64,000 nucleotides of DNA. It comes from an uncultured delta proteobacterium. Its GTDB lineage: Bacteria; Desulfobacterota; Binatia; Binatales; Binataceae. The position numbers and the translations under genes are program-made. The stretch spans positions 32,001-96,000 of the forward strand of contig CAWEEQ010000002.1 in assembly GCA_963808235.1 (NCBI GenBank), given 5' to 3'. Every line of letters starts with the position of its first letter. Positions within the stretch are counted from its first letter, which is position 1. Shown piece after piece: positions 1 to 33,287 of the stretch. Under the pieces are notes generated by a model. That model had not been told where the DNA came from and ran no database searches. It was given only the letters and a program-made list of their open reading frames with translations.

Positions 1-1251
1 TTCTTCGAGGATCACCTGGAGCAGTTCATTGTGCTTGGGATTCGATTCGTTCAAATCGCGGCTCATCAGCTCGGCCGACAACGCGAGCGAAGTGAGCGGA
101 GTTCTGAGCTCGTGCGACAGGGTGGCGACCAGGTTGGTGCGCGCGCGGTCTTGATCACGTATGTAGGTGACGTCCTGGAGAATCAGCAGCGTCCCGAGAG
201 AGATTCCCTCGGTATGATGGAGCGGGACGGGCTTGAGAACGTAAGAATGCTCCCGGCCGCGGACGTGAAGATCGATTTCGATGCGTTGGCCGTTGCCGCC
301 GGACCTTTGCAGGGTGCGGAGCGCGTCGCGCACGCGCAGGTAGTGAGGATGGTTGCTGCTGAGATCGTCGAATGGACTGCCGAGCGCGTCGGCGGGATCG
401 ACCTCGAGAATCAGCGACGCGATCTCATTGATATGCGCAACGACTCCGTTCGCGTCGATCAGCACTACGCCGTCTTCGAGGCTCTCGATGATCGCCTCGG
501 TCTTGCTCTTCTCATAAACGAGACGCTCGACGTTGAGCTTGTCGTACTGCTCGAGCCGTTCCGCCATCTGGTTGAACTCGCGCGCGACAGCTTCGAGCTC
601 GGCGAGCGGCTGCGGGCCGAGGCGGACCTGCGACTTGCGCTGGCTTATTCCGCGCAGCCGTTCAGTCAGTTCCGTGAGCGGTTTCGACAGACGCCAGCCG
701 AGACCCCAGGAGACCGCCGCGCCGACGAGCAGCACTAACGCCAGGCCGCCGGCGAACTCGTAGGCAAGGCGCTTGCCCAAGCGGATTGAGCGGCTGTCGG
801 CGCGGAACATCGCGGCCTTGTTCATGGCGATCAGATCGTCGAGACGGGCATGTAATTGCGCAAATTCCGGATCGTGATTCACACCCGGGGGCGAGGCCGC
901 GATTTCGTCGAAGAGCTTTTGCCCGCGCCCGCGGATATCGGCGGCGAGTTCAGGTTCCCCTTTTTCGGTGTAGTCGTGATTCTCGACGTCGAACCACTTC
1001 GCGAACATCTGTCGCGACTGGGGCAGGACAGTTCTGGCGCGGCCGTCGTGCTCGGCGACCTGAAGATCTGTGAGCGAGGCGTGCATGTGCTGTGCGGCCT
1101 CGATGCTGACGTAGTTGCGATAAAGCGTTGCGCGGATCGCGCCGCCAAGCTGGTAGAGCCTGGGCAGCGTGTAGACTCCGAGCAGGACCACCAACGCGAG
1201 CATCAGCAGGGTTCCGTCGCGGATTCGGCGTTGCAGTGATGGTGCGCTCAT
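1..1251 (-). CDS. Membrane sensor histidine kinase (TM-periplasmic sensor-TM-HAMP-PAS-HisKA), partner of split KdpD; 3' end runs off the window
   Basis: Not in the ORF track; translated by hand from ATG 1251: MSAPSLQRRIRDGTLLMLALVVLLG...LSKPLTELTERLRGIS (HAMP)...ESLEDGVVLID (PAS)...VATLSHELRTPLTSL (H-box). Confidence 0.9.
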   Translation of the reverse strand, partial: MSAPSLQRRIRDGTLLMLALVVLLGVYTLPRLYQLGGAIRATLYRNYVSIEAAQHMHASLTDLQVAEHDGRARTVLPQSRQMFAKWFDVENHDYTEKGEPELAADIRGRGQKLFDEIAASPPGVNHDPEFAQLHARLDDLIAMNKAAMFRADSRSIRLGKRLAYEFAGGLALVLLVGAAVSWGLGWRLSKPLTELTERLRGISQRKSQVRLGPQPLAELEAVAREFNQMAERLEQYDKLNVERLVYEKSKTEAIIESLEDGVVLIDANGVVAHINEIASLILEVDPADALGSPFDDLSSNHPHYLRVRDALRTLQRSGGNGQRIEIDLHVRGREHSYVLKPVPLHHTEGISLGTLLILQDVTYIRDQDRARTNLVATLSHELRTPLTSLALSAELMSRDLNESNPKHNELLQVILEE

Positions 1252-1322
1252 CGAGATCTCTCCGCTGCGCTCATCGGGACTTCTCCGCTGCGCTCATCGG
1301 GATTTCTCCGCTGCGCTCATCG
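1243..1322. repeat. 23-bp tandem repeat (3 full units plus a partial) duplicating the kdpD-N stop/kinase start junction
   Basis: tgcgctcatcg recurs with TCAT at 1248, 1271, 1294, 1317 (23-bp period). Confidence 0.95.
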
Positions 1323-2474
1323 CACTTCCTCCGATTGCTCGGTCGCGACGATTTCCACGTCGAGGTCGCTGGCGTCTTCGACTAGGCGGGCCGGCACGTC
1401 GCCTTTGAGCCATCGGCGCCATCGCGGCTGATGGGTGCGGCCTACGATCACTTTCGAAACGCCTTTGTCACGCGCGAAGTCGATCATCGCCTTGACCACG
1501 TCGTCAGACTTGAGCCACACGGTCTCAGCGCCGAGATCGCTGGCGAGATTGATGTTGTTGAGCAGCGCGACGAAATCGCTGGTGCCGATATTTTTCACCG
1601 ATTCGGAAGGGGTTTCGATATGCACTGCATACCATTCCGCGTTGAGCTGGCCCGCGAGCCGGGAAGCTCGGCGCAGCAACTGGCCGGTGTCGCTGGCGTT
1701 GGAGGAGACTCCCACCATGATTCGATCGACGACGTGAGTGCGGCGCCCGCCTTCCCGCTTGAGCGACTCCTGGTCAGTGCGTTGCCGATCGAGATTGCGC
1801 GCCACTTCGCGCAGCGCGAGTTCACGGAGCGAGGCGAGATTGCTCGGCTTGAAGAAATTTTTGAGCGCATTTTCTATCTGGGCGTGAGGATATATCTTGC
1901 CCTCGCGCAGGCGTTCGCGGAGCGCGTCAACCGGCACGTCGATATTTACAATCGTGGCGGCATGAAGGAGGAACGAATCGGGGACCGTCTCGCGGACGTC
2001 GATTCCGGTGATGCGTCTCATCAGGGGATTGAGGCTTTCGAGGTGCTGGATGTTCACCGCGGTAATCACGTTGATGCCAGTGGCAACGATTTCTTCGACG
2101 TCCTGGTACCTCTTTTCGTGGCGCGAGCCGGGAACGTTGGTGTGCGCGAGTTCATCAACGATGGCAACGTCAGGCTTGCGCGCAATGATCGCGTCGATGT
2201 CCATCTCCTCCAGCATCACGTCACGGTAGGAAATATTGCGGCGCGGGACCACCTCGAGGGCGCCTATTAGCGCCTCGGTCTCGCGGCGATGATGCGACTC
2301 GACGAAACCGAGCACGACATCGACTCCCCGGTCGCGAAGCTGATGCGCTTCCTCCAGCATCCGGTATGTTTTGCCTACTCCCGCGGCGGCGCCGATGTAA
2401 ATTTTGAGCCGGCCCTTTTGACGCTGAGGAACGAGATCGAGAAACGCCTCGGGCTCGATTCGCTTATCGTTCAT
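1317..2474 (-). CDS. kdpD: Stand-alone KdpD N-terminal sensor domain plus Usp domain
   Basis: GRLKIYIGAAAGVGKTYRML, VDELAHTNVPGSRHEKRYQDV, NIQHLESLN; C-terminal Usp; no kinase domain. Confidence 0.92.
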   Translation of the reverse strand: MNDKRIEPEAFLDLVPQRQKGRLKIYIGAAAGVGKTYRMLEEAHQLRDRGVDVVLGFVESHHRRETEALIGALEVVPRRNISYRDVMLEEMDIDAIIARKPDVAIVDELAHTNVPGSRHEKRYQDVEEIVATGINVITAVNIQHLESLNPLMRRITGIDVRETVPDSFLLHAATIVNIDVPVDALRERLREGKIYPHAQIENALKNFFKPSNLASLRELALREVARNLDRQRTDQESLKREGGRRTHVVDRIMVGVSSNASDTGQLLRRASRLAGQLNAEWYAVHIETPSESVKNIGTSDFVALLNNINLASDLGAETVWLKSDDVVKAMIDFARDKGVSKVIVGRTHQPRWRRWLKGDVPARLVEDASDLDVEIVATEQSEEVR

Positions 2475-2547
2475 TCAGGTCCTGGTTGCATTCAGGTCCC
2501 GGTTCATTCAGGTCCCGGTTCATTCGGGTCTTGGTCGCATTCAGGTT
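2472..2547. repeat. 16/17-bp tandem repeat duplicating the kdpC stop/kdpD start junction
   Basis: cattc(a/g)ggt units start at 2472, 2489, 2505, 2521, 2538. Confidence 0.93.
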
Positions 2548-3152
2548 CCGGAAGAACCGCCATGACTTGTCGCGACGCGATCGAGGGCGAGGTTAAGCCT
2601 CAGCACATTGACGCCGGCCTCGCCAAAAATCCCCGCCGCACGCGGCCGCGTATTTTCGGCGATCAGCCGCCGCACCTGATCTTCGCTCAGACTACGTGCG
2701 TGGGCAACCCGTGCCACCTGCAATTCGGCGGCGGCCGGACTGATCTCGGGGTCCAGGCCGCTGGCCGAAGTCGTAACTATATCAATCGGGACCTGCGCCG
2801 GGTTGGCTCCGGGATTGCTCTCAAGGAAGTTCTTGAGCCGCAGGCGCACCGCGTCGATGAGCGCTTTGTTGGTGGGCGCGAGATTCGAGCCGCCTGAATT
2901 GGCGGCGTCGTAGCCCTTGTCGCCGGCGGCGGAGGGGCGGCTCTGAAAATAGCGCGGCGACGAAAAATTCTGGCCGATGAGACTCGAGCCGACAACCTTC
3001 CCGTTTTTAACCAGTAAACTTCCGTGAGCACTCTCCGGAAAGATCACCTCGGCGAGGCCGCAGACTGCGAGCGGATAGACCAATCCGGTGATCACGGTGA
3101 GCAAAGCAGTTAGTGCAAGTGCGGAGATGAATGTGCGCACAAACGACCTCAT
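2541..3152 (-). CDS. kdpC: K+-transporting ATPase subunit C
   Basis: [43 protein letters not shown]. Confidence 0.97.
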
Positions 3153-5194
3153 GCGAGATGAAGCGCCGCGATTACAACGTCGATCGCCTTGATTCCGATG
3201 AAAGGAATGATAACCCCGCCGACGCCGTAGATGAAAAGGTTGCGGGTCAGGATGGCGGCGGCGCCGAGCGGACGATAGGCGACGCCTCGGAGCGCCAGCG
3301 GTATCAGCGCGATGATGATCAGAGCGTTGAAGATCACGGCGGACAGGATCGCGCTTTGCGGCGTCGCGAGGTGCATCACGTTGAGCCGCTGGAGCTGCGG
3401 ATATTCGACGATGAACAGCGCCGGGATGATCGCGAAATACTTGGCGACGTCGTTGGCGATGGAAAATGTAGTCAGCGCGCCGCGCGTCATCAGGAGTTGT
3501 TTACCAATCTCGACGACTTCCATGACCTTGGTCGGGTTGGAGTCGAGGTCGATCATGTTGCCGGCCTCGCGCGCGGCCTGGGTGCCCGCGTTCATCGCGA
3601 TTCCGACGTCAGCCTGCGCGAGCGCGGGCGCGTCGTTGGTGCCGTCGCCAATCATGGCGACCAGCTTGCCCTGGTTCTGCTCCTCGCGAATCAGGCGCAG
3701 CTTGGTTTCCGGAGTGGCCTCGGCGAGGAAATCGTCGACGCCGGATTCACCCGCGATCGCTGCGGCAGTGAGCGGATTGTCGCCGGTAATCATGACGGTA
3801 CGGAGGCCCATCGCGCGCAGCCGCTCGAAACGTTCCTTGATTCCTTCCTTGACCACATCTTTTAAATGGATGACGCCGAGCGCGCGCGACCCGTCGGCGA
3901 CCACGAGCGGAGTGCCGCCGCTGCGGGCGATGCGCTCGACGATCGGCTTCAAGTCCACCGGCGCAACGCCGTGATTTTCTTCGACGAACTTTATGATCTG
4001 ATCGGTCGCGCCTTTGCGAATCCGATGGGTGCCGACGTCGACGCCGCTCATGCGGGTGGTGGCGGAGAACGGGATGAAGGTTGCACCGTCGTCACCGGCG
4101 CCGAGTTCGCGGCCGCGCAAGTTGTACTCGCGCTTGGCGAGCACGACGATCGATCGTCCCTCGGGGGTCTCGTCGGCCAGAGACGCGAATTGTGCGGCCT
4201 CGGCAAGTTCGCGCGTTTCGACGCCGGCGATGGGCAGAAACTCGGACGCCATCCGATTGCCAAGCGTGATCGTGCCGGTCTTATCGAGCAGCAAGGTATC
4301 GACGTCGCCGGCGGCTTCAACCGCGCGGCCGGACATCGCGAGCACGTTGTGCTGGACGAGGCGATCCATGCCGGCGATTCCAATCGCCGAGAGCAATCCG
4401 CCGATGGTGGTCGGAATCAGACAGACCAGCAAAGCAACCAGCACCGGCAGCGCGAGCCGCGTTCCAAGGTAAAGGCCGAATGGATAGAGGGTGACGATAA
4501 CGAGCAGGAAGACGATGGTGAGTCCAACGAGCAGGATGCTGAGCGCGATTTCGTTGGGAGTCTTCTGGCGCTGGGCGCCTTCGACCAGAGAGATCATTCG
4601 ATCCAGGAAAGTTTCGCCGGGGTTGGCGGTGATACGCACTTTGATCCAGTCGGAGATGACGGTGGTGCCGCCAGTGACGGCGCTGCGATCGCCGCCGCTC
4701 TCGCGAATGACCGGTGCGGATTCGCCGGTAATCGCAGCTTCGTTGACCGCCGCGACGCCCTCGATCACTTCGCCGTCGCCGGGAATCACGTCGCCGGCCG
4801 CGACCATTACGACGTCGCCGCGGCGGAGCTGAGTGGCGGGTACCAGTTTGGTCTCGGAGCCGGTGATCAGTTTGGCCTGGGTCTCGGTGCGCGTCTTGCG
4901 CAGATTTTCGGCCTGCGCCTTGCCGCGTCCTTCGGCCATCGCCTCGGCGAAGTTTGCGAACAGCACGGTGAACCAGAGCCATAGCGCGATTTGAAATTCG
5001 AAGGCGGCCAGGGCGGCGCGATGCGCGAGCGTATCGCGAAGCAGGGTGAACATGGTCAGCACGCTGGTGACTTCGACCACGAACATCACCGGATTCTTGA
5101 TCATCAGGCGCGGATCGAGCTTGACGAACGAATCGATCGCTGCGCGCGAGACGATTTCACGATTCCAGAGTGCGGGAGCCTTTCGATCAGACAT
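3149..5194 (-). CDS. kdpB: K+-transporting P-type ATPase subunit B
   Basis: Start [10 protein letters not shown] at 5194; [31 protein letters not shown]. Confidence 0.98.
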
Positions 5195-5202
5195 AAGTTG
5201 GC

Positions 5203-6930
5203 CTAGAAGAGTTTCCCGGACGACATCAGGAGTTGTTCGACGATTGGTCCAAGTGCGACAGCGCAGAAAAACGTCAGCGCGCCGACGATCACGATCACGC
5301 CGATCAGCAGGAATACGAAGGGGACGCCGTCGGTCGGGAAAGTTCCGGCGCTGGCGGCGGTGGTTTTTTTGGCTGCGACGGAGCCTGCAATCGCGAGTGC
5401 GGGAATTGCCATCATGAATCTCCCGAGCAGCATCACGATCGCGAGAGTCATGTTGTAGAAGGTGGTGTTGGCGTTGAGGCCGGCGAATGCGGAGCCGTTG
5501 TTGGCGCCGGCTTCGGTAAATGCGTAAAGGACTTGCGAGAAGCCGTGCGGGCCGGGATTCGACATGCTCGAGAGTCCGGCGGGCAAGACGGTCGCGATGG
5601 CGGTCGGAATCAGGATGACGGCGGGGAAGATGAGGACGTAGAGCATCGCGAGCTTCATCTCGCGCGCTTCGATTTTTTTGCCGAGGTACTCCGGCGTGCG
5701 GCCGACCATGAGGCCCGCGATGAACACCGCCAGGACCGCCATGACGATGATCCCGTAGAGGCCGGAGCCGACGCCGCCGAAGATCACTTCGCCGAGTTGC
5801 ATATTGACCATCGGCACGAGACCGCCGAGCGGCGTGTAACTGTCGTGCATCGAGTTCACCGCGCCGCACGAGGTGTCGGTGGTGGCAGTGGCCCACATTG
5901 CGGACTCGACGATTCCGAAGCGGACTTCCTTGCCCTCCATGTTGCCGCCGCTTTGCGCGGCCGATGCGTTTGCGTCGAGGCCCATCGCGGCGAACTGCGG
6001 ATTGCCGCGCTGCTCGGCCCATCCAGCGGAGACGGCGCCGACGAGGAACAGGATCGACATCACCGCGAAGAGCGCCCATCCTTGACGGCGATCGCCGACC
6101 ATTTTGCCGAAAGTGTGTGTCAGTCCCGCGCCGATCGAAAAGATCGCGAGCATCTCGAGCAGATTGGTCAGCGGATTCGGGTTCTCATAGGGATGCGCCG
6201 AGTTGGCGTTCATGAAGCCGCCGCCGTTGGTGCCGAGCTCCTTGATAATTTCCTGGGAGGCGACCGGCCCCTCGGCGATCGTTTGCTGAGCACCTTCGAG
6301 CGTGGTTGCACTGACGTAAGGCTCGAGGTTGTCGGGTACGCCCTGCCATACCAGCACGAATGCGAAGATGATCGAGAGCGGCATCAGCACCCAGAGCGTG
6401 GTGCGAGTGAGATCGACCCAGAAATTCCCGATCGTCTTCGCGCTGCGCCGGGCAAATCCGCGAATCACCGCCGCGGCCATCGCGATTCCCGCTGCGGCAG
6501 AGAGGAAATTGTGCGACGTGAGCCCGAGCATCTGGGTCAGATAGCTAAGCGTCTGCTCGCCCGAGTAGGCCTGCCAGTTGGTGTTAGTCGTGAAGCTGGC
6601 GGCGGTGTTGAAGGCGAGTTGCGGAGGTACGCCGGCGAAGTGTTGCGGGTTGAGCGGGAGGTAGTATTGCAGGCGCTGGAGTGCGTAGAGAAAAATCATC
6701 GAGATCAAGCTGAACGCGAGCATCGCGATCGTGTAACCAGTCCAAGCCATCTCGAGGTCGGGATTTATTCCGCAAATTTTGTAGATCAACCTTTCGATCG
6801 GAGAGAGTACCAGGTCGAGAAAAGTGCGCTCATGCGAAAAGACTCGCGCCATGTACAAGCCCAGCGGTACGCTGATAGCGGTGACGATCAGGAAGAAAAC
6901 GGCGAGCTGGATTAGCAGGTTGGATGACAT
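5203..6930 (-). CDS. kdpA: K+-transporting ATPase subunit A
   Basis: [53 protein letters not shown]. Confidence 0.98.
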
Positions 6931-6954
6931 CGCGATCGGTACCGGCGACGGCGA

Positions 6955-7047
6955 TCAGAATTTTTCGGGGCGGATCAGTGCGTAAATCAGGTAGGCGCCG
7001 AGCAAAATCGCGCAGACCCCGCCGAGGACGGTTTCGACCGGACTCAT
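6955..7047 (-). CDS. kdpF: K+-transporting ATPase subunit F (30 aa)
   Basis: Manual translation MSPVETVLGGVCAILLGAYLIYALIRPEKF; typical KdpF C-terminus. Confidence 0.93.
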   Translation of the reverse strand: MSPVETVLGGVCAILLGAYLIYALIRPEKF

Positions 7048-7127
7048 AGTGCGTCGCAGCCTCGAACGTAGGCGATAGCGATCGCAAAGAAGGTTAGGGT
7101 GGCGAGAACTGAAGTCAAATCCCACAT
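7044..7127 (-). CDS. 27-aa hydrophobic peptide translationally coupled to kdpF
   Basis: MWDLTSVLATLTFFAIAIAYVRGCDAL; stop overlaps kdpF start (ATGA). Confidence 0.75.
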   Translation of the reverse strand: MWDLTSVLATLTFFAIAIAYVRGCDAL

Positions 7128-7146
7128 ATCGATTTCACACACACTG

Positions 7147-7506
7147 CTATCTTAGTCCAAATCGCGAAGTGAAAAACGTCGCGCGCGGTTCGCGGCGGCG
7201 AATCCGATCGGCGTCGGTACCGTTCGAAGTTTGAATCGGACGGTGCTCAAGGTTCAGTGCTTCCATAGCCGGGCACGGCCCGAGCGCGAATGTTGCGCCG
7301 CGTTTGATCGCCTCGTCATGGGGCAAAGGCTTGCCGTCGTCATCCACCGGAGCGATCACTCCGCGCCGCCCGTCATTGACCACGAATGACCATTTACATC
7401 GCGCGCAGTGATAGAGATAGCGATTCGGTTTGAACAAGCCGGGTAGCTTGTCGAGTACCTTGATCGCAAACAGATGGCGCGTGACGGTCGTCATTGACGA
7501 TTTCAT
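7147..7506 (-). CDS. Hypothetical protein with CxxC motif, first gene of kdp operon
   Basis: 119-aa ORF (YHCARCKWSF) between the sigma54-type promoter and the kdp peptides. Confidence 0.55.
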   Translation of the reverse strand: MKSSMTTVTRHLFAIKVLDKLPGLFKPNRYLYHCARCKWSFVVNDGRRGVIAPVDDDGKPLPHDEAIKRGATFALGPCPAMEALNLEHRPIQTSNGTDADRIRRREPRATFFTSRFGLR

Positions 7507-7530
7507 TTACGTTGCCCCTGAGGGTGTATC

Positions 7531-7547
7531 AGCACCCGACGTGCCAA
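7531..7547 (-). promoter_or_regulatory. Putative sigma54 (-24/-12) promoter of kdp operon
   Basis: TTGGCACGTCGGGTGCT (GG-N10-GC) 25 nt upstream of ATG 7506. Confidence 0.6.
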
Positions 7548-7604
7548 CGAAAAACGCTGATTTGATGAGGTATTTTGTGGGGATTTGCGCCTTAGATTTC
7601 AAAA

Positions 7605-7625
7605 TGCATCGTGCTGCTTGATGCA
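7605..7625. promoter_or_regulatory. Palindromic candidate enhancer (activator) site
   Basis: TGCATC-N9-GATGCA upstream of the sigma54 motif with an AT-rich spacer. Confidence 0.45.
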
Positions 7626-7738
7626 AACTGCATGAGACTTGGTCTTGGCGAAGGCTAACTCGTCAGATCGGTTGAAGGACTCGCGACGCAGCACTAGCAT
7701 CGGCAATCGATCGCGATTCTCGAATCGAACGGAGAATT

Positions 7739-8953
7739 ATGAAACGGCAGAGTCGACGAGAAAAATCCACGGCAAGCCGGCCGCGCGCCGGCCGCAAAGC
7801 TGCGGGGCCGTCACGCCGGGCGATTCACAAGAAGCGCGTCGTTTTGTTGGTCGGTACGCGCAAGGGCGCGTTCATTTACTACGGCGACGCGACGCGCTCG
7901 CGATGGCGCCTCGACGGGCCGCATCGCCTCGGCGAAATCGTCAATCACGTGGTGCTCGATCCTCGCGACGGCATGACGATGCTGATGGCGGCGCGCGCCG
8001 GCCATCTCGGGCCGACGATCTTTCGCTCGGTCGATATGGGACGCACGTGGAAGGAAGCGGCCGAACCGCCGGCATTTCGCAAGGCGGCGGTGGGCGAGAA
8101 CGGCCGTGCGGTGGATTACACGTTCTGGCTGTCGCCGGGGCATCGCGATGAGCATGACACCTGGTTCGCGGGAACCTCGCCGCCGGCGTTGTTCCGAAGT
8201 GAGGATGGTGGCGTCACGTGGCGCGGCGTCGATAGTTACAACGATCACGACATGTATGCGAGGTGGAACCCGCCGGGCGGCGGCACGCCTGACGGCGCAG
8301 TACTCAGTTCGGTGATCGTGGACCCGCGCGACGCGCGGCATATGTACATGGTTACGTCCGACGGCGGCGCTTTCGAGACGCTCGACAAGTGCGAGACGTG
8401 GCGCTCGATCAACAAGGGCGTCGAGGCGAACTTTCTGCCCGATCCATATCCCGAGTACGGACAGGATGTGCACTGCCTATCGATGCATCCGGCGAATCCG
8501 GATCGGCTCTATCAGCAGAATCATTGCGGCATCTATCGAATCGATCGGCCGAGCGACGAATGGATCCGAATCGGCAGCAACATGCCGAAACAGATCGGAG
8601 ACATCGGCTTTGGAATCGTCGTGCATCCGCGCGATCCGGATACGGCGTGGGTATTTCCGATGGACGGCACGACGGTGTGGCCGCGAACCAGTCCGGACGG
8701 TAAGCCGGCGGTTTACCGCACCAGTGATGCGGGCGCGACGTGGCTCAGGCAGGATCGCGGTTTGCCGCGTGAGCATGCCTGGTTCACGGTCAAGCGCCAG
8801 GCGTTTTGCGCCGATGATTTAGACCCGGTCGGAATTTACTTCGGCACCACCAGCGGAGAGGTGTGGATGAGTCCGAACGAGGGGCGCAGCTTCAATCTGG
8901 TCGCGGCCCATCTGCCGCATATCTACTCGGTCGTCGCGGCGACGATTCCCTGA
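7739..8953 (+). CDS. BNR/Asp-box beta-propeller protein (WD40/YVTN/sialidase-like)
   Basis: LLVGTRKGAF, repeated SxDxGxTW boxes, LYQQNHCGIYR. Confidence 0.85.
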   Translation: MKRQSRREKSTASRPRAGRKAAGPSRRAIHKKRVVLLVGTRKGAFIYYGDATRSRWRLDGPHRLGEIVNHVVLDPRDGMTMLMAARAGHLGPTIFRSVDMGRTWKEAAEPPAFRKAAVGENGRAVDYTFWLSPGHRDEHDTWFAGTSPPALFRSEDGGVTWRGVDSYNDHDMYARWNPPGGGTPDGAVLSSVIVDPRDARHMYMVTSDGGAFETLDKCETWRSINKGVEANFLPDPYPEYGQDVHCLSMHPANPDRLYQQNHCGIYRIDRPSDEWIRIGSNMPKQIGDIGFGIVVHPRDPDTAWVFPMDGTTVWPRTSPDGKPAVYRTSDAGATWLRQDRGLPREHAWFTVKRQAFCADDLDPVGIYFGTTSGEVWMSPNEGRSFNLVAAHLPHIYSVVAATIP

Positions 8954-14277: not shown

Positions 14278-14489
14278 CGGGAGATCCTCCGCGAGGGCAG
14301 GTTTTCGGTCGTCCTTGTGGACGTACCGCGTCCCGCGCTTCAATAAGATTCCATACCAATCGTTCAGGAAGATTGCAAAGTGGAGACCATTGCATAACCG
14401 GATGAAGCAGCATCCCCTCTCCCGACGGAGACCTTTGCATAACCGGCTGTTGGGGCCGGCGCTACTGCGCCGGCGCGGTCTTTTCTTTG

Positions 14490-14520
14490 TGTCATTCTAG
14501 AGCGAAGCGAAGAATCCCGG
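14490..14520 (+). repeat. Remnant of a REP-like intergenic palindrome
   Basis: tgtcattctagagcgaagcgaagaatcc resembles the widespread GTCATTCTGAGCG...GAAGAATC repeat class; single copy here. Confidence 0.4.
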
Positions 14521-14672
14521 ATCTTTTCCAATGCTCATCACACTACGCCCTGCTCACCTCCATCGACGTGCTTGCCTGCGCGCCCTACGCCTCTCGCTTC
14601 GGATGCGACAGTCCGCGGCGCGCTCGCGAGCCCTCGCGGCTGCGAACTAATTCCGAGTCTCAGGAGATCCAG

Positions 14673-32837: not shown

Positions 32838-33287
32838 CTAGTCAGCGTCGCCGCCGTTCTGATTCACGTAGTTCACGAATTTCTGCTGAAGCTGGGGATC
32901 ATTCTGAACCATCTGGATGACCTGGTTGTATTGCTGAGGATCCAGACCTTCGGTCTTCACCGCGGCTATTTTCTCTGACTGCGCAGATGCCTCGTCGGGT
33001 TGCGCGCCGGCCGGGCTCGCCTGCTTCGTCTGATGCACGATCTGTTTCACCTTGACGTAGGCTTTGGCCGCCTTCTGCAGAGTCGCGTCATCTATTTGCG
33101 CGCTCTGCTGCGCGCCTGCAGCCGGTGCCGATGCCGCAGAACCGCTCTCGTTCATGGAAGCCGGTGCCGAAGCCGCAGAGCCACTGTCGCTCATAGAGCC
33201 TGGACTCTGAGCCAAAGCGCCGGAAATCGGGAAACCGACGAACACGGCGAGCGCTCCTCCGGCAAATACTGTACGGGTTAGCGTCAT
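32838..33287 (-). CDS. Secreted DUF4168-like protein
   Basis: Signal peptide, duplicated SGSAASAPA linker, GLDPQQYNQVIQMVQNDPQL. Confidence 0.75.
   Translation of the reverse strand: MTLTRTVFAGGALAVFVGFPISGALAQSPGSMSDSGSAASAPASMNESGSAASAPAAGAQQSAQIDDATLQKAAKAYVKVKQIVHQTKQASPAGAQPDEASAQSEKIAAVKTEGLDPQQYNQVIQMVQNDPQLQQKFVNYVNQNGGDAD

What the first reader, a model, noticed from the sequence alone, without database searches (positions are those of the whole stretch)
1243..1322. Relay of three identical translationally coupled mini-ORFs between kdpD-N and its kinase
Seen: on the minus strand each 23-bp unit is a complete 8-codon ORF: MSAAEKSR* (1320-1294), MSAAEKSR* (1297-1271), MSAAERSR* (1274-1248). 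Every stop overlaps the next ATG (ATGA), and each unit has a GGAG Shine-Dalgarno 8 nt before that ATG. The chain links the KdpD-N stop to the kinase start without a break. The differences between units are synonymous (AAA/AAG, TCC/TCT) or conservative (K to R). Inference: a copy-number-variable re-initiation ladder that tunes the sensor:kinase ratio, or a mutational process that duplicates stop/start junctions and is tolerated because coupling is preserved.
Basis: partly seen in the sequence, partly recalled or inferred. Interest (0 to 1): 0.75.

Follow-up and report, generated by a model that had tools for sequence, protein, structure and literature searches.

The report
Copy-variable repeats at kdp gene junctions
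In a soil bacterium's potassium-pump operon, the short stop/start overlap between two genes has been copied in tandem, making a chain of tiny reading frames whose number differs between wild strains; it is a tidy natural example of how such junctions can be duplicated without breaking either gene.

Summary
On the minus strand, window 1252-1320 holds three 23-bp units. Each is a closed 8-codon ORF (MSAAEKSR, MSAAEKSR, MSAAERSR) with an ATGA stop/start overlap and a GGAG 8 nt before each ATG. The chain links a split KdpD-N/Usp sensor gene to a TM-HAMP-PAS histidine kinase.

The units are copies of the junction itself. All 22 congener genomes, and 22 of 23 Binataceae loci, have one plain ATGA junction there.

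The array is real and copy-variable. Contigs from two other studies reproduce it exactly. A roughly 93%-identical strain has two units fewer.

A second array (17+16+16+17 bp, window 2475-2540) duplicates the neighbouring kdpC/kdpD-N junction. It also varies between strains.

Two more exact 17-bp ATGA-junction duplications occur elsewhere in the genome. All three clean cases have a period of 2 mod 3, the length that makes each copy end on the next ATGA.

Best reading: a slippage-made junction VNTR, tolerated because each unit is a self-contained SD-start-stop module. Tuning of the sensor:kinase ratio is possible but untested. The closest known system is mycobacterial MIRU-VNTRs, but these units are local, shorter and not dispersed.

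The parts
1317..2474 (-). kdpD-N: split sensor gene (385 aa) with KdpD N-terminal domain plus Usp domain. It has no membrane or kinase part. Its stop is TGA at 1319-1317.
   Evidence: Pfam PF02702 E 2.9e-94 and PF00582 E 6.1e-07. ORF.
1329..1332 (-). Native GGAG(G) Shine-Dalgarno in the kdpD-N tail, 8 nt before the first ATG (1320).
   Evidence: The anti-SD CCUCC is in the 16S 3' end.
1298..1320 (-). Unit 1 (23 bp). Mini-ORF 1320-1294 reads MSAAEKSR*. Its ATG overlaps the kdpD-N stop (ATGA). Internal GGAG at 1309-1306.
1275..1297 (-). Unit 2 (23 bp). Mini-ORF 1297-1271 reads MSAAEKSR*. ATGA overlap with unit 1's stop. GGAG at 1286-1283.
1252..1274 (-). Unit 3 (23 bp). Mini-ORF 1274-1248 reads MSAAERSR*. 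Its stop overlaps the kinase ATG (1251-1249) as ATGA. GGAG at 1263-1260.
1..1251 (-). Histidine kinase. The first 417 aa lie in the window. The full protein is 595 aa: TM, HAMP, PAS, HisKA, HATPase_c. It starts MSAPSLQRR; its first three codons (ATG AGC GCA) are the head of every repeat unit.
   Evidence: Pfam. ORF.
2475..2540 (-). Second junction array, between the kdpC stop (2543-2541) and the kdpD-N ATG (2474). It has four units of 17+16+16+17 bp, each built from the kdpD-N start (ATGAAC) and the kdpC tail (CGGGACCTGA). Mini-ORFs: 2540-2520 MRPRPE*, 2523-2464 (19 codons, runs 10 nt past the kdpD-N ATG), 2507-2475 MNRDLNATRT*, 2491-2471 MQPGPE*.
   Evidence: All 20 congener loci have a single junction.
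2541..3152 (-). kdpC (203 aa). Its ATG overlaps the kdpB stop as a single ATGA (3152-3149).
   Evidence: Pfam PF02669 E 2e-74. ORFs.
3149..6930 (-). kdpB and kdpA, upstream in the same operon. kdpA is at 5203-6930. kdpB ends at 3149.
   Evidence: ORF list and translations. Names are from the translated sequences and gene order; no Pfam run was made on them.

Best explanation
This is a strain-variable tandem duplication (a VNTR) of the stop/start junction itself. It is not an inserted element.

Each 23-bp unit joins two local pieces. One is the last 14 nt of kdpD-N, which contains its GGAG ribosome-binding site. The other is the ATGA overlap plus the first codons of the kinase gene.

It most likely arose by slipped-strand mispairing between short, imperfect direct repeats that flank the junction (GAGCAA... 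and GAGCGCA...). Once two copies existed, it expanded and contracted by further slippage.

It persists because the unit length is 2 mod 3. A ribosome that starts at the first ATG therefore reads 8 codons and stops exactly on the next ATGA. Every unit is a closed SD-start-stop module, and both real proteins stay unchanged.

Ribosomes are then passed from kdpD-N to the kinase in one of two ways: repeated termination-reinitiation, or fresh loading at each GGAG. The likely net effect on kinase output is small, probably a modest loss per step.

Shown: the anatomy, the local origin, the absence from relatives, the copy-number variation, and the parallel cases. Inferred: the slippage mechanism, actual translation of the units, and the size and sign of any effect on expression.
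For: Anatomy.

Local origin: relatives read ...cgggaggaatcgcgATGAgcgcgccg... at a single junction. The unit is that tail plus that head.

Derived state: 0 of 22 congener genomes have an extra unit. Two of these, G018 and G023, are unpublished. Among the Binataceae loci from genome contigs, 0 of 23 have one. Of those 23, 22 have one ATGA junction and 1 has no kinase next to it. The two sets probably share genomes.

Real and variable: X2 record 11 and X3 record 18 span the array with 0 differences. X4 record 26 (24 differences in 361 nt) skips 46 bp, which is 2 units.

Same process next door: the kdpC/kdpD-N array varies too. X3 record 24 differs at 4 letters in 493 and lacks one 16-bp unit. X4 record 29 skips 33 bp and carries an extra 11 bp.

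Same process elsewhere in the genome:
- The Phd/YefM-PIN pair has an exact 17-bp x2 ATGA duplication giving MIAYVR*.
- The CNNM/CorC-AIRC(LarB-like) pair has a 17-bp x2 duplication giving MTEKLR*. It is flanked by GCGA direct repeats and is single in 14 of 14 congeners.

All three clean cases have period 2 mod 3. By my arithmetic the chance of that is 1/27.

Not a mobile element: the units occur nowhere else in the genome.

No competing signal: RNA folds are no better than shuffles (z 0.07 and -0.85). There was no Rfam hit in 1-8000 and no promoter-like site.

Concept: NTGA (-4) spacing couples translation, and short ORFs can deliver ribosomes to a downstream gene (review PMC12548453; passages read).
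Against: No expression or ribosome data exist, so translation of the units is inferred from sequence alone.

The frame rule rests on three cases picked after the fact. A fourth possible case (10 bp, 1 mod 3, G000:C4:2679275) was set aside because its gene calls are unclear. The two 16-bp units at the kdpC junction do not obey the rule either. In this genome, the chain at that junction overruns the kdpD-N start by 10 nt.

The same screen on 1.56 Mb of a congener genome found no clean case, so the rule was not replicated.

Two arrays flank one gene, and they are the two best short non-triplet arrays in 4.6 Mb. That is more than a uniform mutational process would predict. It leaves room for selection on kdpD-N expression.

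The three differences between units all miss ATGA and GGAG, but by chance that happens about 28% of the time (my arithmetic: (45/69)^3).

All read evidence is from assembled contigs at depth 3-5, not raw reads.
Confidence: 0.7

Rival explanations
1. Adaptive rheostat. The two arrays are evolvable dials. Gain or loss of units changes how many ribosomes reach kdpD-N and the kinase. This tunes the ratio of pump, sensor and kinase to local potassium supply. Natural strains differ in copy number because of that selection.
For: Both junctions that flank kdpD-N carry arrays. They are the top two short non-triplet arrays in the genome. Both vary between near-identical and about 93%-identical strains. 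All units keep ATG, stop and a purine-rich SD-like motif. In the X3 allele, with one 16-mer fewer, the kdpC-to-kdpD-N chain would become seamless. That is inferred coordinates and the two identical 16-mers.
Against: No expression data exist. Once a tandem array exists, copy-number change is expected without selection. The two 17-bp duplications at unrelated genes show the process is not specific to kdp. The G000 allele at the kdpC junction has an imperfect chain. Neither array was found in the congeners searched (0 of 22 genomes at the kinase junction, 0 of 20 at the kdpC junction), so the operon works without them.
Confidence: 0.2
2. MIRU-like mobile or dispersed element. The units derive from a repeat family that inserts at start codons, as mycobacterial MIRUs are thought to do.
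For: The unit resembles the core of a dispersed element of about 110 bp in this genome (TGTGTCATTCTGAGCGCAGCGAAGAA.CCCG...). That element gave 59 BLAST hits. About 20 sites match unit positions 2-18 with one mismatch. The three positions where the units differ from the relative-like junction sequence all agree with that element (my comparison).
Against: A profile built from 31 copies of the element hits the array only at E 2.7 and 7.8 in the 64-kb window, below several chance hits. The element's flanks (TGTGTCATT......ATCTTTCTCGG) are absent from the units. The unit is fully explained by the local tail plus head seen in relatives. No other copy of the unit exists in the genome. The other three junction duplications have unrelated, locally derived units.
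Confidence: 0.04
3. DNA-level regulatory repeats. The direct repeats are binding sites for a regulator, or form an internal promoter for the kinase gene.
For: Direct repeats of 16-23 bp are the sort of thing regulators bind. An NtrC-type response regulator lies about 2 kb downstream on the same strand.
Against: No sigma-70-like promoter or terminator was found in or beside either array. The units are copies of coding and junction sequence. They are absent from all relatives with the same operon. Copy number differs between close strains.
Confidence: 0.03
4. Assembly or polishing artefact.
For: Tandem repeats are prone to assembly error. The genome is a 4-contig metagenome-type assembly, 93% complete.
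Against: Contigs of other runs from two studies reproduce all three units letter for letter. One of these may be the source sample. The units differ from each other, so no 31-mer repeats within the array (my reading). A divergent strain carries a different but related allele.
Confidence: 0.01
5. The 8-residue peptides themselves are functional products.
For: Three near-identical peptides. The only amino-acid change is K to R.
Against: The peptide is a by-product of the kinase head (MSA) read into the kdpD-N tail in another frame. Only three sites vary, so conservation cannot be tested. Mini-ORFs at the other junctions encode unrelated peptides.
Confidence: 0.01

Closest known systems
Mycobacterial interspersed repetitive units (MIRU-VNTR), first described in the senX3-regX3 two-component operon (Supply et al. 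1997). Known here only through reviews PMC12548453 (section 11 passages) and PMC3184786 (section 9 passage). The original paper is not held.
   Same: Tandem units sit between co-transcribed genes of a two-component system operon. Each unit carries a small ORF whose ends overlap the neighbours' stop and start with -4 spacing, so insertion barely disturbs expression. Copy number varies between strains.
   Different: MIRUs are 40-100 bp, occur at about 40-50 loci per genome and appear to be mobile. The units here are 23 bp (and 16/17 bp). They are made from the junction's own sequence and occur nowhere else in the genome. They sit in a Binataceae soil bacterium, not a mycobacterium.
Ordinary NTGA (-4) stop/start overlap with translational coupling
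   Same: Each of the four ATGA sites, with GGAG 8 nt upstream, is a textbook coupled junction. Relatives have exactly one.
   Different: Here the junction is repeated four times in series, with 8-codon ORFs in between.
Short upstream ORFs that deliver ribosomes to a downstream gene, and the engineered 'bicistronic design' (review PMC12548453, passage read)
   Same: A short ORF with its own SD ends on the start codon of the gene of interest.
   Different: Those are single leader ORFs at the 5' end of a message. This is a chain inside an operon that arose by duplication.
Phase-variable simple sequence repeats (contingency loci). This comparison is recalled; no paper was read.
   Same: Slippage-prone tandem repeats whose copy number differs between strains and can alter expression.
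   Different: Contingency repeats usually have units of 1-9 nt inside ORFs or promoters and switch genes on and off by frameshift. Here any copy number leaves both genes intact.
Split KdpD, with the KdpD N-terminal domain encoded apart from the kinase, as reported for cyanobacteria. This is recalled; no paper was read.
   Same: KdpD-N plus Usp as a separate protein next to kdpFABC, followed by a separate histidine kinase.
   Different: This concerns the genes flanking the array, not the array itself.

Membership tests
MIRU-VNTR | Dispersed family: many copies at different loci in one genome | tested here: not met
   blastn-short of two units against the whole genome finds full-length matches only at the array itself.
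MIRU-VNTR | Unit length about 40-100 bp | tested here: not met
   Units are 23 bp, and 16/17 bp at the second junction. The size range is from PMC3184786.
MIRU-VNTR | Lies between genes of an operon; the unit ORF overlaps the flanking stop and start (-4 spacing) | tested here: met
   ATGA at all four boundaries.
MIRU-VNTR | Copy number differs between strains | tested here: met
   Three extra units in the window and in the X2 and X3 contigs. One extra unit in the X4 contig. None in congeners.
MIRU-VNTR | Sequence related to the MIRU consensus | not tested
Translationally coupled NTGA junction | Co-oriented genes whose start and stop share NTGA | tested here: met
Translationally coupled NTGA junction | Translation of the downstream ORF depends on translation of the upstream ORF | not testable with these tools
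   Needs reporter fusions or ribosome profiling.
Tandem repeat / VNTR | Head-to-tail copies above chance, polymorphic in copy number | tested here: met
   TRF score 139 with 92% matches. A 46-bp skip in X4.
Phase-variable contingency locus | Change of copy number shifts a reading frame or promoter spacing and switches a gene on or off | tested here: not met
   Each unit is self-contained. Both flanking ORFs are intact with 0, 1 or 3 extra units.
Split KdpD sensor (flanking genes) | KdpD N-terminal domain plus Usp without membrane or kinase part, next to kdpABC, with a separate histidine kinase | tested here: met
   PF02702 + PF00582 in 385 aa. The kinase has HAMP, PAS, HisKA and HATPase_c. kdpC is upstream.

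The most novel reading that the evidence does not exclude
Stop/start junctions are a natural substrate for evolvable translational dials. Slippage copies the SD-ATGA module. Only copies whose length is 2 mod 3 survive, because they hand the ribosome on. The resulting arrays then vary in copy number in wild populations. Here, paired arrays on both sides of kdpD-N would set the pump:sensor:kinase stoichiometry. If so, a general 'frame rule' for tolerated junction duplications should be visible across bacterial genomes. Locally born, MIRU-like coupled arrays would then be a recurrent, overlooked class of regulatory polymorphism.
Probability: 0.15. Interest if true: 0.65.

Novelty: new variant of a known kind. 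Interest (0 to 1): 0.42.

Why it matters
Overlapping stop/start codons are the commonest gene junction in prokaryotes. This locus shows that such a junction can be duplicated several times in series, in nature, without harming either gene. It also shows that the copies then behave as a VNTR between wild strains.

It suggests a simple, testable rule: only duplications of length 2 mod 3 keep the ribosome hand-over at an ATGA junction. It also shows that MIRU-like coupled mini-ORF arrays can arise locally, without a mobile element.

In practice, such arrays could serve as strain markers in uncultured soil bacteria. They also offer natural templates for graded control of expression inside operons.

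If the arrays are merely tolerated, the finding is a neat illustration rather than a new mechanism.

Tried and rejected
1. Exact 18-mer scans of metagenome contigs and genome contigs for the unit boundary. These returned 118 and 119 stretches, each with a single match, in unrelated taxa. No array was found and nothing was learned.

2. Origin from the dispersed element of about 110 bp. The resemblance is not significant (nhmmer E 2.7 and 7.8), so this was rejected as the main explanation and kept as a minor rival.

3. RNA structure. MFE z-scores were 0.07 and -0.85. There were no Rfam matches at E up to 1 in window 1-8000.

4. Promoter and terminator scan of 1000-3300. It found 0 promoter-like sites and 1 terminator-like site, inside kdpD-N and away from the arrays.

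5. Replication of the frame rule in a second genome. I fetched 1.56 Mb of congener G006 and ran the same screen. Seven weak candidates appeared (periods 9, 10, 37). None was a clean duplicated ATGA junction, so the rule stays at n = 3.

6. 'Total insert is a multiple of 3' (69 and 66 bp). I considered this and dropped it. The X3 allele lacks 16 bp and the X4 alleles differ by 46 bp and by 33 minus 11 bp.

8. Supply et al. 1997 is not held. MIRU facts come from two review passages.

9. A literature search for a direct precedent used the terms translational coupling, tandem repeat, stop codon, start codon and copy number. Of 790 loose matches, none of the 15 listed describes duplicated stop/start junctions. 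The MIRU search gave the two reviews. Absence from print is claimed only for these two searches.

There is therefore no expression evidence.

Full report
**Observation**

- The kdpD-N gene ends ...GAG GAA GTG CGA TGA. Its stop at 1319-1317 overlaps an ATG at 1320.
- Three 23-bp units follow (1320-1298, 1297-1275, 1274-1252). Each is ATG plus seven codons plus TGA, reading MSAAEKSR, MSAAEKSR and MSAAERSR.
- Each stop overlaps the next ATG as ATGA. The last overlaps the kinase start at 1251.
- GGAG lies 8 nt before all four ATGs. The 16S rRNA of this genome ends ...CACCUCCUUUCU, so GGAG can pair with it.
- Tandem Repeats Finder gives period 23, 3.5 copies, 92% matches and score 139. If the native kdpD-N tail is included as a worn copy, it gives 4.0 copies.
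- The three units differ at 3 of 23 positions.

**The genes**

- The upstream gene encodes 385 aa with the KdpD N-terminal sensor domain (PF02702, E 2.9e-94) and a Usp domain. It has no membrane or kinase part.
- The downstream gene encodes a 595-aa kinase with HAMP, PAS, HisKA and HATPase_c domains.
- kdpC, kdpB and kdpA lie upstream on the same strand.
- This is therefore a kdp operon with a split KdpD.
- Record titles of the closest relatives name Candidatus Binatus / Binataceae soil MAGs.

**Where the units come from**

I searched 41 genomes (the window's own plus 40 relatives) with the KdpD-N protein. I then cut out the junction in 22 congener genomes.
- Every one has a single junction of the form ...cgggaggaatcgcgATGAgcgcgccg..., with the kinase starting on that ATGA.
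- None has an extra unit. TRF on these loci finds no array there.
- Two of the 22 genomes (G018, G023) are unpublished. Without them the count is 0 of 20.
- A second set of 23 Binataceae loci from genome contigs gives the same picture. Of these, 22 have one ATGA junction, 1 has no kinase beside it, and 0 have an array. The two sets probably share genomes and are not independent.
- The 23-bp unit is simply the kinase head (ATGAGCGCA) joined to the kdpD-N tail (GCGGAG...CG). It is a duplicate of the junction.
- The junction is flanked by near-repeats, GAGCAA and GAGCGCA. This is the kind of short homology at which replication slippage starts. That mechanism is an inference.

**Real, and variable between strains**

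Logan contigs of four soil runs from three studies were laid on window 900-2900.
- X2 record 11 (203 nt) and X3 record 18 (182 nt) span the whole array with no differences. They come from two studies. One may be the sample of origin.
- X4 record 26, from a third study, differs at 24 of 361 letters. It skips exactly 46 bp, which is two units, so that strain carries one extra unit instead of three.
- For scale, the nearest species genome is 87-89% identical over this region.
- These are contigs at depth 3-5, not reads. However, the units differ enough that no 31-mer repeats inside the array.

**A second array next door**

- Between the kdpC stop (2543-2541) and the kdpD-N start (2474), TRF reports period 16 and 5.1 copies.
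- The sequence is four units of 17+16+16+17 bp. Each is made of the kdpD-N head (ATGAAC) and the kdpC tail (CGGGACCTGA).
- All 20 congener loci that cover this junction have a single TGAATG junction.
- The mini-ORFs here chain less neatly. MRPRPE* starts right after the kdpC stop and ends on an ATGA. The ORF that starts there runs 19 codons and ends 10 nt past the kdpD-N ATG.
- This array varies as well. X3 record 24 differs at 4 letters in 493 and lacks one 16-bp unit. X4 record 29 skips 33 bp and has 11 bp put in at the start codon.
- Because the two 16-mers are identical, the X3 allele should read kdpC-TGA|ATG-MRPRPE-ATGA-MNRDLNATRT-TGA|ATG-kdpD-N. That would be a seamless chain. This is my inference from coordinates.
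- Some congeners also carry an in-frame 24-bp duplication in the kdpC tail (L006, L009, L273). This stretch is therefore repeatedly prone to slippage.

**Is the process general?**

- TRF on the whole 4.59-Mb genome gives 26 rows (25 distinct arrays) with a non-triplet period of at least 10 and at least 2.8 copies. The two kdp arrays are the best two with a period under 40.
- A screen looked for tandem duplications that sit between co-oriented plausible genes. It found two more clean duplicated ATGA junctions.
- The first is a Phd/YefM antitoxin and PIN toxin pair, with an exact 17-bp x2 duplication giving MIAYVR*.
- The second is a CNNM/CorC transporter and an AIRC (LarB-like) gene, with a 17-bp x2 duplication giving MTEKLR*. 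All 14 congeners examined have a single junction there, flanked by GCGA repeats 17 nt apart.
- Other junction-associated arrays are less clean. They include epimerase/LepA at 21 bp, and a 15-bp unit with ATGTAA/GTGTAA.

**A frame rule**

- If an ATGA junction is duplicated with length L, the ORF opened by the first ATG meets the next TGA in frame only when L is 2 mod 3.
- With L at 0 mod 3, it extends the downstream protein.
- With L at 1 mod 3, it reads across the true start out of frame.
- The three clean cases are 23, 17 and 17 bp, all 2 mod 3. The chance of that is 1/27 (my arithmetic, post hoc).
- Against this, a 10-bp candidate with unclear genes was set aside. The 16-mers at the kdpC junction also break the rule.
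- The same screen over 1.56 Mb of congener G006 found no clean case, so the rule was not replicated.

**What it is not**

- The unit occurs nowhere else in the genome.
- It does resemble the core of a dispersed element with 59 BLAST hits. However, a profile of 31 copies scores the array at E 2.7 and 7.8 in the window, below chance hits.
- The arrays fold no better than shuffles.
- They match no Rfam family.
- They hold no promoter-like site.

**How it most likely works**

- Shown: a locally derived, strain-variable tandem duplication of a complete SD-ATGA module, which leaves both proteins unchanged.
- Inferred: ribosomes finishing kdpD-N reinitiate on unit 1, read eight codons, and repeat until they reach the kinase start. 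Fresh ribosomes may also load at each GGAG.
- The review of translational coupling (PMC12548453; passages read) states three relevant points. The -4 spacing couples efficiently. Short ORFs can deliver ribosomes. MIRUs are thought to be tolerated for this very reason.
- I put about 0.7 on 'slippage VNTR tolerated because coupling is kept'. I put about 0.2 on an adaptive tuning role. The main support for tuning is that both junctions of kdpD-N are affected and polymorphic.

**Comparison with known systems**

- The closest known system is MIRU-VNTR. It was first seen between senX3 and regX3 (Supply 1997, known here only through PMC12548453 and PMC3184786).
- Shared features: tandem units inside a two-component operon, unit ORFs overlapping the neighbouring stop and start, and copy-number polymorphism.
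- Features not shared: dispersal, unit size and apparent mobility.
- This locus therefore works like a MIRU array but is not a member of that family. I rate it a new variant of a known kind.

**Verdict**

Interest is moderate. It is a clean natural case with a testable rule, but no function has been shown and a known analogue exists.

Noticed in passing
window 14475-14540 (+); also about 59 sites in G000, for example C4:3295661-3295840: A dispersed element of about 110 bp with consensus ...TTTTTGTGTCATTCtGAGCGcAGCGAaGAAcCCCGgATCTTTCTCGGCGCAAAACACTTCGACTTC... It gave 59 BLAST hits in the genome, sometimes in tandem at 175-189 bp or 283 bp spacing. One clear copy lies in the window (nhmmer E 3.2e-13). 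It looks like a REP/MITE-type intergenic repeat.
   Followed up: partly
loci L305, L306, L310, L311, L317, L319, L323, L325, L327, L329, L334, L339, L341, L342 (just after the kdpD-N stop): In Acidobacteriota (Pyrinomonadaceae/Blastocatellia) with the same split kdpD-N, the gene's 3' end and the spacer before the kinase hold tandem repeats, mostly heptamers (GGATGAA, AGTCAGA, AGTTACA, GATTGCC; a 14-mer in L306). In several loci inverted copies follow a few dozen bases downstream, which would form long hairpins. This is a different kind of repeat at the same junction.
   Followed up: no
L006:2673-2719, L009:2673-2722, L273:1128-1177: Several congeners carry an in-frame 24-bp x2 duplication in the 3' tail of kdpC, which lengthens the protein by 8 residues. 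The kdpC end is recurrently duplicated in this genus.
   Followed up: partly
G000:C4:1698902-1698961 (minus strand): Four 15-bp units lie between a DUF155 gene and the next ORF. The first, second and fourth carry a start codon directly followed by a stop (ATGTAA, GTGTAA, GTGTAG). The third reads ATGTGG.
   Followed up: partly
G000:C4:1368723-1368783 (minus strand): A 21-bp x2.9 array at the epimerase/LepA junction. The upstream copies resemble the TGAAATG junction but have lost the T of the ATG. The LepA-like ORF was only 246 aa in my scan, with GTP_EFTU domains only, so it may be broken or my ORF call may be short.
   Followed up: no
L017, L026 and a third place (G003:C7, C9, C14): One congener genome holds three places with identical scores for the kdpD-N match on three contigs. 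This may be an assembly duplication or a real multi-copy kdp locus.
   Followed up: no
L003 (G021) and L023/L030 (G013): In G021, kdpD-N ends at a TAG 5 nt before the usual ATGA. In G013, the kdpD-N and kinase matches are split into several pieces, which suggests frameshifts.
   Followed up: no
L348:1998-3329 (G000:C2, about 2 kb beyond the kinase, same strand): An NtrC-type response regulator (receiver domain, sigma-54 activator domain and HTH_8) is the nearest regulator gene. This operon may therefore be controlled through sigma-54 rather than a KdpE-type regulator.
   Followed up: no
window 33120-33194: A 39-bp x1.9 tandem repeat (TRF score 115). Not examined.
   Followed up: no
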